Shown here: one piece after another, positions 13,453 through 21,901 of the stretch
How positions within the stretch are numbered: position 1 is the first letter of the stretch
How the letters are laid out: every line of letters begins with the position of its first letter
Source: Promethearchaeota archaeon
Lineage (GTDB): Archaea > Asgardarchaeota > Lokiarchaeia > Sigyniarchaeales > SOKP01
NCBI GenBank assembly: GCA_016840085.1
Contig: JAEOTA010000018.1
Location: 1-64,000 of the forward strand
Reading direction: 5' to 3'
DNA: 64,000 nucleotides
The notes under the pieces: generated by a model
What the model saw: only the letters and a program-made list of their open reading frames with translations
The model's database searches: none
What the model was told of the DNA's origin: nothing
Translations under genes and position numbers: made by a program

Positions 13453-14025
13453 ATGAGTGCTGATGATAAAGGATTTGGGTTTAAAATAACAGTAATTGGT
13501 GATGCTGCCGTAGGGAAAACTTCCTTAATTAAAAAATATACTCAAGGCTCATTTCAAAAGGATTATATCTCTACTTTGGGTACTCAATTTTCTAAATATG
13601 AAGAAGTTATTGATGGGGAAAAAGTAGAATTATTCTTATGGGATATTGCCGGTCAGGATTCATTTGAAGCATTACGCCAAAGATTTTATACAGGAAGTAG
13701 TGGAGCAATAATTGTTTTTTCTCACGCTCTAGAACAAACTAAAAGTTATGAGCATGTGAATAAATGGCTTTCTGATCTAAAAAACCATTGTGGAAATATA
13801 CCAATTGTTCTATTTGGTAATAAAATTGATTTAATTGATGATGGAGAGTTAGAGTCAAATCCAAATTTACCTACTGCGAATGCAACGGTAGAACAGTTTA
13901 CCAAGGAGAATAGATTCATAGCATATTATAAAACGAGTGCTTTAACTGGACAAGGAGTAACTGACGCATTTAAAGCATTAGTTAGAAAATTATATGAAAT
14001 TGCTAAAATTTCAAATTTTAGTTAA
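13453..14025 (+). CDS. Rab/Ras-like small GTPase (eukaryotic signature protein)
   Basis: FKITVIGDAAVGKTS, YISTLG, LWDIAGQ, GNKID, KTSALTG; no C-terminal CAAX. Confidence 0.92.
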   Translation: MSADDKGFGFKITVIGDAAVGKTSLIKKYTQGSFQKDYISTLGTQFSKYEEVIDGEKVELFLWDIAGQDSFEALRQRFYTGSSGAIIVFSHALEQTKSYEHVNKWLSDLKNHCGNIPIVLFGNKIDLIDDGELESNPNLPTANATVEQFTKENRFIAYYKTSALTGQGVTDAFKALVRKLYEIAKISNFS

Positions 14026-14079: not shown

Positions 14080-16392
14080 TTAGGTACGTTTATAAATAAA
14101 TCGTTCCCAACTTTTTCTGCTTGGCATTTCTAGAGGCATACCCTTCCTTTTGCGTATTTCCATGATTATTTCTTCTTCAAATGAAGCAGGGACACGAGAA
14201 AAACCTTCGAATTCATATCCGAAAAACGCTCTGCCTTGGGTTGATCCTCTAATGTCATCGGCGATCCCGATTGTTTCAGCAGCAGGAATCTGGCCTTGTA
14301 TTCGTACATATTCACCTTCAGGAATGACATTAGTAATTCTACCTCTTCGCTTGGTTATGATTGCAGTGACGCTTCCTTCAGTTCCTTGCGGTGTTTTTAT
14401 ATCTATTCTTTGGATTGGTTCATAAAGATGAGGATCTGCTTCCAGCATTGCTAGGGACATAGCTGAAAAAGCCATTCCTGCAATTTGCCCATATTGAGTA
14501 TGTCTTGGGTCTTCGTGCACTACTAAATCTGTGAAAACGATTTTGAATCCTGTTGCTGGTTCTTTTGCTATAATACAATCACCGAGCCAATCTCTAAAGG
14601 CAGCTGATAAATAAGACTTAACTCTATCAAATCGTTGTAACCCCGCAGCACCATTTACAAGTACGCTTCCATGGTATACATCCACTACACGTCTAGCTTC
14701 TTTTGCATCCCACCCAGCTTCTTCTCTTAGAATCATAGCTCTCTCCTTTTCATTTTGCAAATCATTAACTTTTCCAGTGTCTATTAAGTGTTCAGTAACT
14801 TCATCTAAGGGTTCGACATACAATAAAATTCGATTGTGAGTATTAGCTGATTTGGTATAAAATTCTCGACTCTTTTCTGTAATTTTTTCTCTATATATAA
14901 TAATTGGTTCTCCAATGTCGATTTGAACTTGTTTATTAATCCTTTTAGTCAAGATTTCTATTTGTAACGGATCAATTCCAGAAAGTATAAATTCTCCTGA
15001 CTCATCATCCCTCCTATATTCTGCTTCTGGGTTCGCTTTAAGCCATTTGCCTACTACATCATCTAATTTATCAATTTCATGTGGATCTTTTGGTTTGATA
15101 CTTCTTGACACGACAGCTTCACACGCATATTGAATTTTTTCGAAGGGGTGTAACAATGTCCTTTCTTCTCTATTCTTAGGAACTTTGTTTGTCAGCATAA
15201 ATGTTTCACCAGCGGGGCATACAAATCCAAATAATGCAAATAAGTTCCCTGCAGGTATCTTGGGGATATCTAAAATATCAGTTATTTCCATAACACCGAG
15301 CCTTTTCACTCGATTGCTTGAATCACTATTAATTAAATAAATAGAATCTGTTTGATCAAATGTACCAGAAAAAACACGACCTATAAGGGTGGCTTGAAAA
15401 TTTCTTTTAGGGTCTAAAAAGATCTTAGTAATCATCCCAAAAAGTGGCCCATTTGGGTCACTTCTCTGCAAAGATTGACCTAATTCTGAGTTCAAATCAC
15501 CGCCCCAGATATGTGGGATTCGATATTTAGACGCACTAACGGGATCTGGAAGATGGTCAACAATCATTCTTAACATAGGTTCATCTAAGGGTAAATTATC
15601 CCTTAGCCATTGAATATCTCCTTCATTATATTTCGCAAAGACATCTTGAGGTTTAAGATTTTTCTCAAGTAAAATCTCATAAGTAAACCCCCATCCATGT
15701 TTAGCTGAACCTACAGCTACAGAATTCTTTACAAAATCAATTCCCCAATCCGATCCTTCTGGTCTAACCTTTTTAATTAATTCATTTACTTCTCTTGTAA
15801 TTTTATCTATTTTAGCAAAGGTTTCTTGAGGGCTAAGTTTTAATTCACTTATTAGTCTATCAACCTTATTGATAAAAAGAACTGGTTTGCAGTATTCTTC
15901 ACCAACGGACAATCTAATATTTGTCTCAGTTTGAGTCATAACTCCTTCAAGAGCGTCTACTAAAATTATAGCACCATCACTGCCCCTAAGTGCTCTTGAT
16001 ACTTCTCCTGTAAAACTTATATGACCGGGAGTGTCGTTAAGTTGAATAATATAGGGTTCCTCATCTTTTGGTTTTCTAGAATCTTGAAACGCCAGGAGTA
16101 CTACAGTTGTAAATATCGTGATGCCGCGTTCTTGCTCCTCATCTTTCAGTATATTAAGTATGCCTTAATCTAAATCTGAATCGGTCATTTGGAGCTGCCC
16201 AGCATCTTCTGGTCGCATTAATCCCGCTCTACGGAGCAAATAATCAGTAGCAGTAGTTTTTCCATGGTCAATTTACGCTATAATAAGGAAAACTCAATAT
16301 AGATGCGCAGTTATGGAAAAAATTCGCTTCTTTTCATATGATCCAGAGGTCACGAGTTTGGCGATTTCATCTGGGTTCTTTACTTTAACCAC
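14080..16392 (-). CDS. fusA: Translation elongation factor 2 family GTPase (probably the divergent Asgard EF-2 paralog); spliced CDS join(16303..16392,16174..16272,14080..16143), ~750 aa
   Basis: GTG start at 16392 after AAGTGA. After removing two 30-nt inserts it reads MVKVKNPDEIAKLV...SITAH/IDHGKTT...MTDSD/DEEQERGITIF...NDTPGHISF...NKVDR...GSA...HEDPRH...RGSTQGRA. The ORF track only captured 14080-15939. Confidence 0.93.
16144..16173 (-). other. 30-nt BHB-type intron 2 in EF-2 mRNA (switch I, upstream of RGITI)
   Basis: Sense strand: TCAG AT^T TAGATTAAG GCATA CTTAATATA CTGA AA^G. Perfect 4-bp helix UCAG/CUGA, two 3-nt bulges, in-frame TAA. Removal gives TCA GAT GAT GAG (SDDE). Confidence 0.88.
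16273..16302 (-). other. 30-nt BHB-type intron 1 in EF-2 mRNA (inside the G1/P-loop)
   Basis: Sense strand: GCGC AT^C TATATTGAG TTTTC CTTATTATA GCGT AA^A. 4-bp helix GCGC/GCGU, two 3-nt bulges, in-frame TGA and TAA. Removal gives GCG CAT ATT GAC (AHID). Confidence 0.88.
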
Positions 16393-16603: not shown

Positions 16604-17272
16604 ATGATTAATCCATTTAATTTAGCTAAAGCTATTGAAAAAGAAGTCTGTAGAAACGGTTCTAAAAAGTTTTATAGGTTCCGTAAAACTCGTTTCTATG
16701 GAGGATGTGCCACTGCTGATTGTTTAGGGTGTAACTTAAGATGTGCTTATTGTTGGGCGCAGAAGAAGGTTTGGAATCCAGCAAGATATGGCGAATTTTA
16801 CACACCAGATGCAGTTAGTGAAAAATTAGATAGGATGAATTTCTCATTGGTTAGAATTAGTGGGGGTGAACCAACACTCTGTAAGAAATACTTGCGTGAG
16901 TTGGTAAGTTTAATCCCAGAAGACAAATTATTCATTCTTGAAACTAATGGAATTCTTTTAGATGAAAATTTTGTTAGGGAGTTAAGCAAGTTTAAAAATC
17001 TGTATGTGAGGGTTTCTTTAAAAGGTGTTGATGAGAGAACTTTCGAAAAAATTACGGGAGCAGAAGGTAAGTTTTTTTATAATCAAATAAATACTCTAGA
17101 TTTACTGAAAAAATATGACATTAAACATAGAGCGGCAATCTTAATTAATTTATTTACTGAATCTCAAATTAATAATTTAGGGATTCCTAACTTAGAATAT
17201 GAAACTTTAATAGATTATCCTTTTGTGCAGAAAAATCTCAAGAAACGAGGAATTGAGGTAATGAGAGTATAA
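16604..17272 (+). CDS. Radical SAM protein (archaeal, PflA/MoaA-like family)
   Basis: FYRFR..RFYGG.ATAD..GCNLRCAYCW, RISGGEP, LETNG. Confidence 0.88.
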   Translation: MINPFNLAKAIEKEVCRNGSKKFYRFRKTRFYGGCATADCLGCNLRCAYCWAQKKVWNPARYGEFYTPDAVSEKLDRMNFSLVRISGGEPTLCKKYLRELVSLIPEDKLFILETNGILLDENFVRELSKFKNLYVRVSLKGVDERTFEKITGAEGKFFYNQINTLDLLKKYDIKHRAAILINLFTESQINNLGIPNLEYETLIDYPFVQKNLKKRGIEVMRV

Positions 17273-17340: not shown

Positions 17341-18798
17341 TTAAAGATAAAAAGGTAATACCATATTTATAAGGATATATAAGGTTTTTCTTCCTGATGC
17401 ATTTTGGCTATTAAATGAGTTTGCAATGTTTAATACCTTAAAATTCTCAGGAATTTTACTTTTAATAAAAGATCTTAAAAAAGTTAAGAAATGAGTATAT
17501 TCTCGTTTAGTTTCTACCCATAAATACTCCTTTTTTTCAAAATATTCTGGATTCTTTTTTCTAAATTTGGAAGCATGAGATTCCTCTTTTACTGGAGGTC
17601 CTCTTCGAATATAAGTTTGTGAAATTGTTGGTTTTTCACAATAGAGCGCGAGATTATATTCATTTATTTCATCCTCAAAATAAACTTCAAAAATTACTTT
17701 TCCAAATCTTTCTGCATGTGAAAATTCCTTTTCTGTATTAGCTTTTATTCTTTCTCCAAGCGAATATAATTTATCTCTATTTATTGTATAATGGATTTCT
17801 TGATTTTCGTTTATCAATTCTAATATAAATATTTTTGGAAGTAATGGATCATTTAAATTAGATAAATCTACTTCTGGAATAGGATTTGTTTCGAAAAATT
17901 TTATATTAGGATCTTTTAAAAACTCACTAATTTTGTAATTACAAAATTTATACGCTCGTTCTGATATCGCAGATGCTACATTTCTGTTTTTATCAATAGG
18001 ATCCACTAAAATAAGATAATCATTCTGAAAATGGGTAATACAGTTTAATTCATCTAAGTTCCTGTTATAGTAATCAAGTGGATTATCATTCAAATCTTTA
18101 AAATTCTTAAAAAGATTTATGATATCATTAAAATAGTAAATTAAAAGTTCAGCGCTATATCCAATAAATCCTACTTTTCCTACTGCACTTTTATCGCCAT
18201 AACAATGATTTGCTTTGAAGAATTGTTTTAAAATTCTTACATCATTTTTTTGCTTTTCTGTTAAATTTTTTCTTACAAAATGTCCATGCCAAGGTGATCT
18301 ATCAACAGCAGTTATTGGCCCGTGTTCTTTTATTCTTTCTAAACTTAAAGAAAAGTAAAGAACAATATCAATTTTTATTTGAATATCATCTACCAAATAG
18401 TCTACTGTAACATATGGATGTTCAGCATATAAGAGTCTGGGATTATGAAATTTATCTGATGTTAAACTTTGAATAATCCAATTATTACAGAGTTTTAAAA
18501 AATCTTTTTTAGACTCTTTTTTTAATTTATTCTTGCTTAAATCCTTATATTTAACTTCATATTCCTTATAATCCAATCCAATAAAAAGATCAATGTCAAA
18601 ATCATCTTTTAATTGTGTCTGTTTAATGCCAGTTGAACCTTGAGGTTCGATATGGAAATTTTTAATACTTAGTTCTTTAGCTTTTGAAACTAATAATTTT
18701 TTTAGTTTTTCAGTAATAGTTTCAATTAAAGTTATTTCTTGAGACGTTGGAATAATTCTTTGTAAAACTTCAGTTAATATATCTTTAATAGACGGCAT
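17341..18798 (-). CDS. cca: CCA-adding enzyme (class I tRNA nucleotidyltransferase)
   Basis: GSTG..T.L..DFDIDLF, YAEHPYV, TAVDRSPWH, GFIGYSAELLI, DPID..RNVA.A. Confidence 0.93.
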   Translation of the reverse strand: MPSIKDILTEVLQRIIPTSQEITLIETITEKLKKLLVSKAKELSIKNFHIEPQGSTGIKQTQLKDDFDIDLFIGLDYKEYEVKYKDLSKNKLKKESKKDFLKLCNNWIIQSLTSDKFHNPRLLYAEHPYVTVDYLVDDIQIKIDIVLYFSLSLERIKEHGPITAVDRSPWHGHFVRKNLTEKQKNDVRILKQFFKANHCYGDKSAVGKVGFIGYSAELLIYYFNDIINLFKNFKDLNDNPLDYYNRNLDELNCITHFQNDYLILVDPIDKNRNVASAISERAYKFCNYKISEFLKDPNIKFFETNPIPEVDLSNLNDPLLPKIFILELINENQEIHYTINRDKLYSLGERIKANTEKEFSHAERFGKVIFEVYFEDEINEYNLALYCEKPTISQTYIRRGPPVKEESHASKFRKKNPEYFEKKEYLWVETKREYTHFLTFLRSFIKSKIPENFKVLNIANSFNSQNASGRKTLYILINMVLPFYL

Positions 18799-19935: not shown

Positions 19936-20139
19936 TTGATTATGGTTAATATTGATAGATTATTAAGACAAGCAATATTTGATGACATGTTGTACTGTCC
20001 TTGTTGTGATTACAGATTATTGGAGCCTGATTATAGGAAATGCTCCCAATGTTATAGAATTAATCCATTAAAGGAAAAGAATTTAATACAAACAGTTACA
20101 TCCCCCACCAGGGATGTTCGAAGGTCCTTTTTAATTTGA
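19936..20139 (+). CDS. Small zinc-finger protein (ATG likely at 19942)
   Basis: CPCC..LLEPDY.KCSQC...NPL; the 3' end overlaps the infB 3' end by 44 nt. Confidence 0.55.
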   Translation: MIMVNIDRLLRQAIFDDMLYCPCCDYRLLEPDYRKCSQCYRINPLKEKNLIQTVTSPTRDVRRSFLI

Positions 20140-21901
20140 TGAATTCTCTTAGAGCTTGTTTTTGATCTGTAGTTAATTCATCAAGAAAATTCCCCATTAA
20201 TTGCCTTACGTGAGACTCTGGGATATTTACATAGAAAACTTCATCTTTTCCGATATCTTTTCCTATTTCAATACCTCGTATAGAAATTGCAACTTCAGAA
20301 TCTTTGGGTGCTTTCTCAATTGTTTGACCTTTATCTTGAATTTGATGGACTCTTCTGACTCTCTTACCGTTTTCAGTGATTAGTGGAACTTTTGGATATA
20401 ATATTCCAGCTTCAATATTTACCCCAAATACAGCAGGATCTGAATTTCTAAATATAAATTCTGGAAGCATTTTAAACTTTGCAGGTAATATTAATTCACT
20501 TAATCCTTTCGCAGTATCTTCAGCTTTTCTAGTTTCGGCGTATTCTATATAATCTTCTAATAATCGATATATAACATTATTTGTAAAAATTCTTATATTA
20601 TCATTATAGGCTTGATCTTCCCCATCAGGTAGAACAGGAACATTAAAACCTAAAACTACTGCACTATAAGGGTCAAAATCTCTAACAATACTTGCATTTA
20701 TTATATCTTCCTTTTTAATAGGTCCTACATCTGCCACACTAATTTTAACTCCTTCCTTAGTAAAAAAATTCTCTAAAGCTTCAAGAGACCCCAGAGTATC
20801 TGCTTTTAATACAACTCCTGCTTTTTCTGTTTTTATACGAATACTTTCTACTTCAGATTCTATTTCGTTATAAACGGTTTCTTCTTCTAATGGATCTGCA
20901 ATACCTCTAAACGGAGACCCTGCTACGACATCTTCAATATTAGGAGCTAAGATTTTAATACCTGCTGCAGCACTAACAGTGTCAACTGAATCAAATCTTT
21001 GTCTTGGATCTCTGATTTCATCCAATGGTTTAGGTATTAATAATGCTCTTGCTTTTGACTTAATTGGTTTTTCTAAACCCCCTACAATGAATTCATCCCC
21101 TTTTTTAATTATTCCATCGTATATTAATACATCTATAGTTTTACCTTGTCCCTTCTCCTTTTTTACCTCCAAAACAACTCCTTTAGCAGAACCCTCAGAA
21201 AATTTAAGATTTGTAGTTAAATATTGTTGGACTAGTCCCATCAGAACTAATAACAATGTTGATATTCCTTCTCCAGTCTTACCGCTTGTAGGCACAATTG
21301 CGACTTTTTTTGTAAAATCTTTTATTTTATCGTATCTATCAATTCCTTTGAAGCCTTCTTCTAAAAAATTTCCCATAATCTGTAAAATTTTTTCATCTAG
21401 AAAGTCTTTTACATGAGGTTTTTGAGTTTTATAAGAATCTAAAAAATCTGCATCTTTTTTTGATTTCCAACCAGATATTCTATCAATTTTATTTGCTGCA
21501 ATTACAAATGGAGTTTTTCTATCTCTTAAAATTCTTACTGATTCCCATGTTATTGGCATTGTTCCCGCAGTAACATCAATGACAAGAATTGCGATATCTG
21601 CAACAGCACCTCCCCGCTTTCTTAAATTTAAAAATGCCGCATGACCGGGAGTATCCACAACTAACATACCAGGAAGTTTAATATCCATTTCAGCAAATTC
21701 TTGTTTGGATTTACTTAAAAATTCTTTAATATCTTTTGTTGGAAAATAAGATGCTCCAATGTGCTGGGTAATACCAGCCGCTTCTCTTTGTTGAACTACC
21801 GTACCTCTTATATAATCTAGAATAGTGGTTTTTCCGTGGTCTATATGCCCTAAGACACAAATAATTGGTGCCCTAATCTTCTTGCTTTCAACTTCAGTCA
21901 T
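20096..21901 (-). CDS. infB: Translation initiation factor aIF5B (IF-2)
   Basis: IRAPIICVLGHIDHGKTT, EAAGITQHIGA, DTPGH, NKID, KADTLGSLEAL. Confidence 0.97.
   Translation of the reverse strand: MTEVESKKIRAPIICVLGHIDHGKTTILDYIRGTVVQQREAAGITQHIGASYFPTKDIKEFLSKSKQEFAEMDIKLPGMLVVDTPGHAAFLNLRKRGGAVADIAILVIDVTAGTMPITWESVRILRDRKTPFVIAANKIDRISGWKSKKDADFLDSYKTQKPHVKDFLDEKILQIMGNFLEEGFKGIDRYDKIKDFTKKVAIVPTSGKTGEGISTLLLVLMGLVQQYLTTNLKFSEGSAKGVVLEVKKEKGQGKTIDVLIYDGIIKKGDEFIVGGLEKPIKSKARALLIPKPLDEIRDPRQRFDSVDTVSAAAGIKILAPNIEDVVAGSPFRGIADPLEEETVYNEIESEVESIRIKTEKAGVVLKADTLGSLEALENFFTKEGVKISVADVGPIKKEDIINASIVRDFDPYSAVVLGFNVPVLPDGEDQAYNDNIRIFTNNVIYRLLEDYIEYAETRKAEDTAKGLSELILPAKFKMLPEFIFRNSDPAVFGVNIEAGILYPKVPLITENGKRVRRVHQIQDKGQTIEKAPKDSEVAISIRGIEIGKDIGKDEVFYVNIPESHVRQLMGNFLDELTTDQKQALREFIKLKRTFEHPWWGM

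What the first reader, a model, noticed from the sequence alone, without database searches (positions are those of the whole stretch)
16144..16302. Two BHB (tRNA-type) mini-introns interrupt an Asgard EF-2 mRNA
Seen: the EF-2 frame starts at GTG 16392 but carries two exactly 30-nt phase-0 inserts, both with in-frame stops. Each forms, with exon sequence, a 4-bp helix flanked by two 3-nt bulges: GCGC/ATC...GCGT/AAA and TCAG/ATT...CTGA/AAG. Established: the archaeal splicing endonuclease EndA cuts after the 2nd nucleotide of each bulge and RtcB ligates. Applying that rule with no adjustment removes exactly 30 nt twice and regenerates AH|IDHGKTT and TDSD|DEEQERGITI at canonical spacing. The rest of the ~750-aa gene has no other lesion, which argues against pseudogene decay. 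The well-known archaeal mRNA BHB intron is the single one in crenarchaeal cbf5. Inference: this is non-spliceosomal, multi-intron mRNA splicing in an Asgard archaeon that gene callers miss by truncating the gene. I cannot confirm from here that it is unreported.
Basis: partly seen in the sequence, partly recalled or inferred. Interest (0 to 1): 0.97.

Follow-up and report, generated by a model that had tools for sequence, protein, structure and literature searches.

The report
tRNA-type mini-introns in Asgard EF-2
The translation elongation factor 2 gene of this Lokiarchaeia (Asgard) archaeon, and at least 14 other genes in its genome, are broken by roughly 30-base hairpins shaped like tRNA introns, so their messages very probably must be cut and re-joined by the tRNA-splicing enzymes, something I found published inside an archaeal coding sequence for only one gene (cbf5).

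Summary
Confirmed and extended. The bona fide aEF-2 gene carries two 30-nt stop-containing inserts (16302-16273, 16173-16144). Cutting after the second base of each 3-nt bulge yields a 750-aa protein colinear with intron-less relatives. Intron 2 recurs in 15 of 54 genus genomes and intron 1 in about 4, with compensatory stem changes, fixed exon codons at the splice helix and dN/dS about 0.03. This argues strongly against assembly artefact or pseudogene. A motif-blind comparison with a relative, plus follow-up, finds 18 such inserts (30-38 nt) in 15 genes of this genome, including uS3, Rpo10, PurA, ubiquitin E1/E2 and RNase HII. The PurA insert is 30, 31 or 32 nt at one site, which excludes read-through. 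Relatives encode a crenarchaeal-type (alpha-beta)2 EndA and RtcB; the alpha subunit is missing from this draft assembly. Splicing itself is inferred (no RNA data); confidence 0.9. In papers I could search, coding-region BHB introns are reported only for cbf5; Asgard reports cover tRNA introns only. This scan's notes already record the same phenomenon in at least 14 other genomes (unchecked, not independent evidence).

The parts
16303..16392 (-). aEF-2 exon 1 (GTG start, 30 codons, ends Ala-His of the G1 P-loop)
   Evidence: relatives start with ATG at the same place
16273..16302 (-). intron 1, 30 nt, phase 0, in-frame TGA 16296-16294 and TAA 16275-16273; hairpin 16301-16279
   Evidence: same insert in L233, L248, L256 with compensatory stem changes
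16302..16308 (-). intron 1 5' splice site: central helix strand GCGC (16308-16305) plus bulge AUC, cut AU^C
   Evidence: GCG-CAT codons in 4/4 carriers vs 4/73 non-carriers
16272..16278 (-). intron 1 3' splice site: helix strand GCGU (16278-16275) plus bulge AAA, cut AA^A
   Evidence: invariant in 4 genomes
16174..16272 (-). aEF-2 exon 2 (33 codons, IDHGKTT to TDSD)
16144..16173 (-). intron 2, 30 nt, phase 0, in-frame TAA 16167-16165; hairpin 16172-16150
   Evidence: 15 of 54 genus genomes
16173..16179 (-). intron 2 5' splice site: helix strand UCAG (16179-16176) plus bulge AUU, cut AU^U
   Evidence: helix 100% paired in 14 rows; TCA-GAT in 15/15 carriers vs 26/62 non-carriers
16143..16149 (-). 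intron 2 3' splice site: helix strand CUGA (16149-16146) plus bulge AAG, cut AA^G
14080..16143 (-). aEF-2 exon 3 (687 codons plus stop); gene callers start it at ATG 15939, giving a 619-aa product without G1-G3
14494..14517 (-). domain IV diphthamide-loop motif HEDPRHTQ, marking the bona fide Lokiarchaeia aEF-2 rather than aEF-2p
   Evidence: Narrowe et al. 10.1101/262600

Best explanation
Both inserts are non-spliceosomal mRNA introns removed by the archaeal tRNA-splicing pathway. The pre-mRNA folds locally: four exon bases pair with four intron bases, a 3-nt bulge sits on each strand, and the intron body is a 9-bp hairpin. The broad-specificity (alpha-beta)2 EndA cuts after the second base of each bulge and RtcB joins the exons, giving full-length aEF-2. 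Shown: inserts, geometry, conservation, selection, genes for the enzymes in relatives. Inferred: cleavage and ligation in vivo. The introns belong to a family-wide population of about 30-nt BHB introns (at least 18 in this genome) that are gained and precisely lost repeatedly and survive mainly in the most conserved motifs; best viewed as near-neutral passengers tolerated because EndA removes them.
For: Exact restoration against intron-less orthologs. Intron 2 in 15 of 54 genomes, helix 100% and stem 96% paired, slid controls 29-42%. Intron 1 in three more assemblies with compensatory changes. Exon synonymous codons fixed to keep the helix: 4/4 vs 4/73, 15/15 vs 26/62, and PurA Gly GGA in all carriers vs 4/15. 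dN/dS 0.031 (this genome), 0.032 (carriers), 0.036 (non-carriers). Motif-blind census: 9 of 10 homology-defined 30/31-nt inserts meet the BHB criteria, chance 0.9% per register; first base of the 3' bulge is A in 14/14, in line with the adenine stacked by EndA (PMC12397907). Frameshifting inserts in single-copy uS3 and Rpo10. PurA insert is 30, 31 or 32 nt at one site. Alpha subunit of relatives has Tyr/His/Lys and the crenarchaeal loop; RtcB present; tRNA introns of the same build in this genome.
Against: No transcript, cleavage or proteome data. Catalytic EndA alpha not found in this assembly; its neighbours are missing too, suggesting a gap. Outer exon-exon helix is weak or absent, and uS3 intron 2 has only 2 of 4 helix pairs here (3 of 4 in three other genomes). 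Kin are not independent, so the codon counts overstate significance.
Confidence: 0.9

Rival explanations
1. Translational bypassing or recoding: the ribosome hops the hairpin or reads through the stops; the RNA is not cut.
For: Inserts are stop-containing hairpins; intron 2 here has an Asp codon just before its TAA and an Asp codon at the landing side.
Against: That Asp is Asn in several carriers; intron 1 has no matching landing codon; lengths of 30/31/32 nt at one PurA site; exon-intron helix and 3-nt bulge register are conserved, which hopping does not require; read-through would put 10 residues into the P-loop.
Confidence: 0.03
2. RNA splicing is real but uses another nuclease or is strongly regulated, so that the introns act as an expression switch rather than passengers.
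For: Relaxed motifs; EndA alpha missing from this assembly; targets include EF-2, uS3, Rpo10, E1, E2.
Against: Geometry and bulge adenine match EndA; every gene is intron-less in most close relatives and carriers are scattered on the tree, unlike a conserved control circuit.
Confidence: 0.04
3. DNA-level excision or a mixed population: the insert is removed from some chromosome copies, or an intron-less allele supplies the protein.
For: Precise, patchy absence among sister genomes; MAGs are population consensus sequences.
Against: No second aEF-2, uS3 or Rpo10 copy in this assembly; no flanking direct repeats (slide 0 for both EF-2 introns); the motif works only on the sense strand (0 of 14 antisense).
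Confidence: 0.02
4. Pseudogene decay or assembly artefact.
For: MAG with 7.6% contamination and gaps; raw reads not available.
Against: Same inserts in many independent assemblies; dN/dS 0.03; no other lesion in 750 codons; essential genes affected.
Confidence: 0.01

Closest known systems
cbf5 pre-mRNA intron of Desulfurococcales and Sulfolobales (Watanabe 2002; Yokobori 2009, PMC2738675)
   Same: Short intron inside a coding sequence, BHB or relaxed BHB at the junctions, hetero-oligomeric EndA with the crenarchaeal loop, gain and loss across lineages, similar size (16-39 nt in the rows read).
   Different: cbf5 is one intron in one gene. Here there are two per mRNA (EF-2, uS3, one small gene), at least 18 per genome in 15 unrelated genes, narrow size (mostly 30-31 nt), polymorphic between congeneric species, in Asgard archaea; and splicing is not yet shown.
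Non-canonical tRNA introns of Asgard archaea and Thermoproteales (PMC11291895; bioRxiv 10.64898/2026.10.13.758758)
   Same: Same BHB geometry, repeated gains, similar hairpins; this genome's own tRNA introns are 24-39 nt.
   Different: Those reports cover tRNA genes only; their intron-rich classes are Jordiarchaeia and Atabeyarchaeia, not Lokiarchaeia.
BHB intron in the 5'UTR of Haloferax volcanii HVO_1309 (PMC7714728)
   Same: mRNA substrate of EndA.
   Different: Untranslated region, single case, does not break a reading frame.
HAC1/XBP1 non-spliceosomal mRNA splicing in eukaryotes (own knowledge)
   Same: Short intron removed by an endonuclease and sealed by the tRNA ligase (RtcB in animals).
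   Different: Cut by IRE1 at two stem-loops, not by EndA/TSEN at a BHB; regulated and gene-specific.

Membership tests
archaeal BHB (EndA/RtcB) intron | 4-bp central helix between 5' exon and intron | tested here: met
   4/4 pairs in both EF-2 introns and all carriers
archaeal BHB (EndA/RtcB) intron | two 3-nt bulges, junctions after the second bulge base | tested here: met
   homology-defined junctions fall exactly there and cannot slide; shifted registers fail
archaeal BHB (EndA/RtcB) intron | intron-side helix h' | tested here: met
   9-bp stems, 96% paired, compensatory changes
strict canonical hBHBh' motif | exon-exon outer helix directly beyond the 3' bulge | tested here: not met
   intron 1: 0 of 5 adjacent pairs; intron 2: 1-2 pairs; fits relaxed HBh'
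archaeal BHB (EndA/RtcB) intron | host encodes broad-specificity EndA and RtcB | tested here: inconclusive
   beta subunit and RtcB in this assembly; alpha with catalytic residues and crenarchaeal loop in G006, G022 (intron-2 carrier), G064, but not found in G000
archaeal BHB (EndA/RtcB) intron | cleavage by EndA and spliced RNA in vivo | not testable with these tools
   no RNA data or assay
bona fide aEF-2 (not aEF-2p) | domain IV loop with the diphthamide-site His; Arg to Thr and Gly to Gln/Ser in Lokiarchaeia | tested here: met
   HEDPRHTQ here; the G006 paralog lacks the loop
group I/II introns, inteins, homing introns | ribozyme core or encoded ORF | tested here: not met
   30 nt with stops cannot hold either
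translational bypass elements (T4 gene 60 type) | matched take-off and landing codons | tested here: not met
   absent for intron 1 and in several intron 2 carriers

The most novel reading that the evidence does not exclude
One family of Lokiarchaeia runs routine, genome-wide pre-mRNA splicing with the tRNA machinery: tens of roughly 30-nt introns per genome, several per transcript, in essential genes, still being gained (possibly copied between sites) and precisely lost. It is a living prokaryotic intron proliferation in the lineage nearest eukaryotes, independent of the spliceosome.
Probability: 0.8. Interest if true: 0.93.

Novelty: new variant of a known kind. Interest (0 to 1): 0.88.

Why it matters
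Archaeal coding genes are treated as intron-free apart from cbf5. If confirmed, an Asgard family has multi-intron mRNAs processed without a spliceosome, which bears on how introns spread and on whether transcription and translation can stay coupled when EF-2, uS3 and an RNA polymerase subunit need splicing first. Presence/absence among close species makes intron gain and loss directly testable, the open problem named in the 2026 Asgard tRNA-intron preprint. Practically, core and eukaryote-signature genes (EF-2, E1, E2) are truncated or missed in annotations and phylogenomic marker sets.

Tried and rejected
Sequence-similarity scan for further copies of the EF-2 hairpins in this genome found none; a genus-wide pattern found only EF-2 sites plus three chance hits, so the introns are not one high-copy repeat. 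De novo BHB scans alone are too noisy: 11,904 and 85,782 candidates, with false positives at gene junctions (HdrC/HdrB, OB-fold/thiolase) and inside intact frames; homology was required. A TGA in an HdrA-like gene on C44 looks like selenocysteine, not an intron. The long match in L262 is an assembly gap. Pfam scan of three small genes failed, probably from my frame choices. The bacterial promoter scan was uninformative. Two scripts timed out and six regions were fetched at wrong coordinates. No structure or complex prediction was needed.

Full report
Observation. The minus-strand frame from GTG 16392 to 14080 has three stops, all inside two 30-nt inserts at 16302-16273 and 16173-16144. Removing them gives a 750-aa protein. 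Each insert is a 23-nt hairpin flanked by a 4-bp exon-intron helix and two 3-nt bulges, with the junctions after the second bulge base. Intron 1 lacks an adjacent exon-exon helix, so it is a relaxed motif.

Host and gene. The closest loci are Promethearchaeota (Lokiarchaeia) MAGs. The domain IV loop reads HEDPRHTQ, the Lokiarchaeia form of the bona fide translocase aEF-2 (Narrowe et al.). It is the only EF-2 found in this assembly; relatives also have the paralog aEF-2p, whose region is missing here. The unspliced long ORF starts at ATG 15939 and lacks G1-G3; this 619-aa product is what the protein collection holds.

Comparative evidence at EF-2. Intron 2 is present at the same base in 15 of 54 genus genomes and cleanly absent from the rest. 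Across 14 copies the central helix is 100% paired and the intron stem 96%, with two pairs changed on both sides; slid structures give 29-42%. Intron 1 occurs in three further assemblies with compensatory stem changes. A third site (31 nt, two codons after intron 1) occurs in L275. Stop-containing inserts of the same lengths appear in other genera of the family and were not seen in the aEF-2 N-terminus of 24 genomes outside it. Carriers always use the synonymous exon codons that form the helix: 4/4 vs 4/73 and 15/15 vs 26/62 (kin are not independent). Median dN/dS is 0.031 for this genome, 0.032 among carriers and 0.036 among non-carriers. Carriers are scattered on the EF-2 tree, with sister sequences differing, which implies repeated precise loss, repeated gain or allele exchange; one gene tree cannot separate these.

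The system is genome-wide. I compared this genome with 2.4 Mb (72%) of congener G006 without requiring any motif. Among frame-breaking inserts with well-matched flanks, 30-31 nt is the only length peak (10 of 46; the rest lie mostly at gene ends or in shadow frames). The ten are EF-2 (two), uS3 (two), Rpo10, AMP phosphorylase, a small GTPase, an acyl-CoA ligase, a Zn-finger protein and a small conserved protein. Nine meet the BHB criteria against 0.9% of random positions, about 4.5% if five registers are allowed. The small conserved gene has a second, 38-nt BHB insert. Motif scans added PurA, CdhC, ubiquitin E1 and E2, each then confirmed by shorter uninterrupted orthologs. Three leads from earlier notes were checked: RNase HII (shared with G006, stem covaries), a ubiquitin-like gene and an FAD oxidoreductase (geometry only). 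The total is 18 inserts in 15 genes, a lower bound. G006 has four of its own, e.g. in uL11 and eS31. Both uS3 introns are shared by four other genomes, including another genus, with an exon-intron compensatory pair. Rpo10 matches stop at the intron position in 10 of 48 genomes. The PurA intron is in 15 of 30 loci at 30, 31 or 32 nt. The first base of the 3' bulge is A in all 14 tabulated cases, and the motif fails on the antisense strand.

Machinery. G006, G022 and G064 encode two EndA subunits; the alpha subunit has the Tyr/His/Lys residues and best matches the 186-aa crenarchaeal-type subunit 3p1z_B including its specificity loop, agreeing with PMC5829648 that Asgard EndA is (alpha-beta)2 with the L1 loop. 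This assembly has the beta subunit and RtcB but not alpha; alpha's neighbours are also missing, so a gap is likely but unproven. Its tRNA genes carry non-canonical BHB introns of 24-39 nt, which require such an enzyme.

Mechanism. Shown: inserts, register, covariation, purifying selection. Established: EndA cuts BHB and relaxed motifs after the second bulge base, and a ligase (RtcB) joins the ends. Inferred: these mRNAs are spliced that way (0.9). Bypassing is disfavoured by missing matched codons and variable lengths; pseudogene and artefact by sharing and selection. Origin is open. Introns at different sites are mostly unrelated (median 8 of 23 identical), but EF-2 introns 1 and 2 are the most similar of 78 site pairs (mean 15, best 19 of 23), a hint of copying between sites. 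Concentration in conserved motifs is partly detection bias and fits survival where imprecise loss is lethal.

Literature. Eight searches found no report of coding-region BHB introns in Asgard archaea. Published mRNA cases are cbf5 and the HVO_1309 5'UTR; Asgard intron papers cover tRNAs. The library lacks most subscription papers. Earlier notes of this scan describe the same phenomenon in at least 14 other genomes and elsewhere in this one; they are unchecked and were not counted as support.

Verdict. Real feature; a new variant of a known intron kind, differing in scale, multiplicity and lineage. Interest 0.88.

Noticed in passing
G000 C85:142161 and 142251 (+) (L293): uS3 has two BHB inserts (31 and 30 nt), both shared with G021, G066, G073 and G239; the second keeps an A-G mismatch at helix position 4 in all five genomes.
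   Followed up: yes
G000 C49:147258 (-) (L296): PurA insert in the WG-DEGKGK motif; 30, 31 or 32 nt in 15 of 30 loci.
   Followed up: yes
G000 C69:52816 (-) (L298): Rpo10 frameshifting 31-nt insert; 9 other genomes truncated at the same profile position.
   Followed up: partly
G000 C78:52861 (+) and 56854 (-): Ubiquitin E2 and E1 each carry a 30-nt insert; shared by 1 and 4 other genomes.
   Followed up: yes
G000 C4:202483, C9:138240, C24:30582, C6:14028, C51:58189 and 58260, C49:155064, C83:76533, C19:6047, C47:51446: Further BHB inserts in CdhC, AMP phosphorylase, small GTPase, acyl-CoA ligase, a small conserved gene (two), Zn-finger, RNase HII, ubiquitin-like and FAD oxidoreductase genes.
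   Followed up: partly
G006 (CP070831): uL11 at about 1,129,379; eS31, scramblase-like and CinA-like genes: Four BHB inserts (28-30 nt) absent from this genome.
   Followed up: partly
L275 (CAZBPC010000076.1): Third EF-2 intron site, 31 nt, two codons after intron 1, together with intron 2.
   Followed up: partly
G000 whole assembly: EndA alpha and the aEF-2p region are not in the assembly despite 98.8% marker completeness; neighbouring genes are missing too.
   Followed up: partly
G000 tRNA genes (C2, C19, C81, C83): Many tRNAs carry non-canonical 24-39 nt BHB introns that ARAGORN misses.
   Followed up: partly
G000 C44 near 45030 (+): In-frame TGA in an HdrA-like gene, probably selenocysteine.
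   Followed up: no
G012 and G061 E2 genes: Short open frames (128, 147 aa) may mark further inserts upstream.
   Followed up: no
window 13453-14025 (+), 16604-17272 (+), 17341-18798 (+), 20096-21901 (-): Neighbours: small Ras-like GTPase, radical SAM protein, archaeal CCA-adding enzyme-like protein and aIF5B; ordinary, no inserts seen.
   Followed up: no
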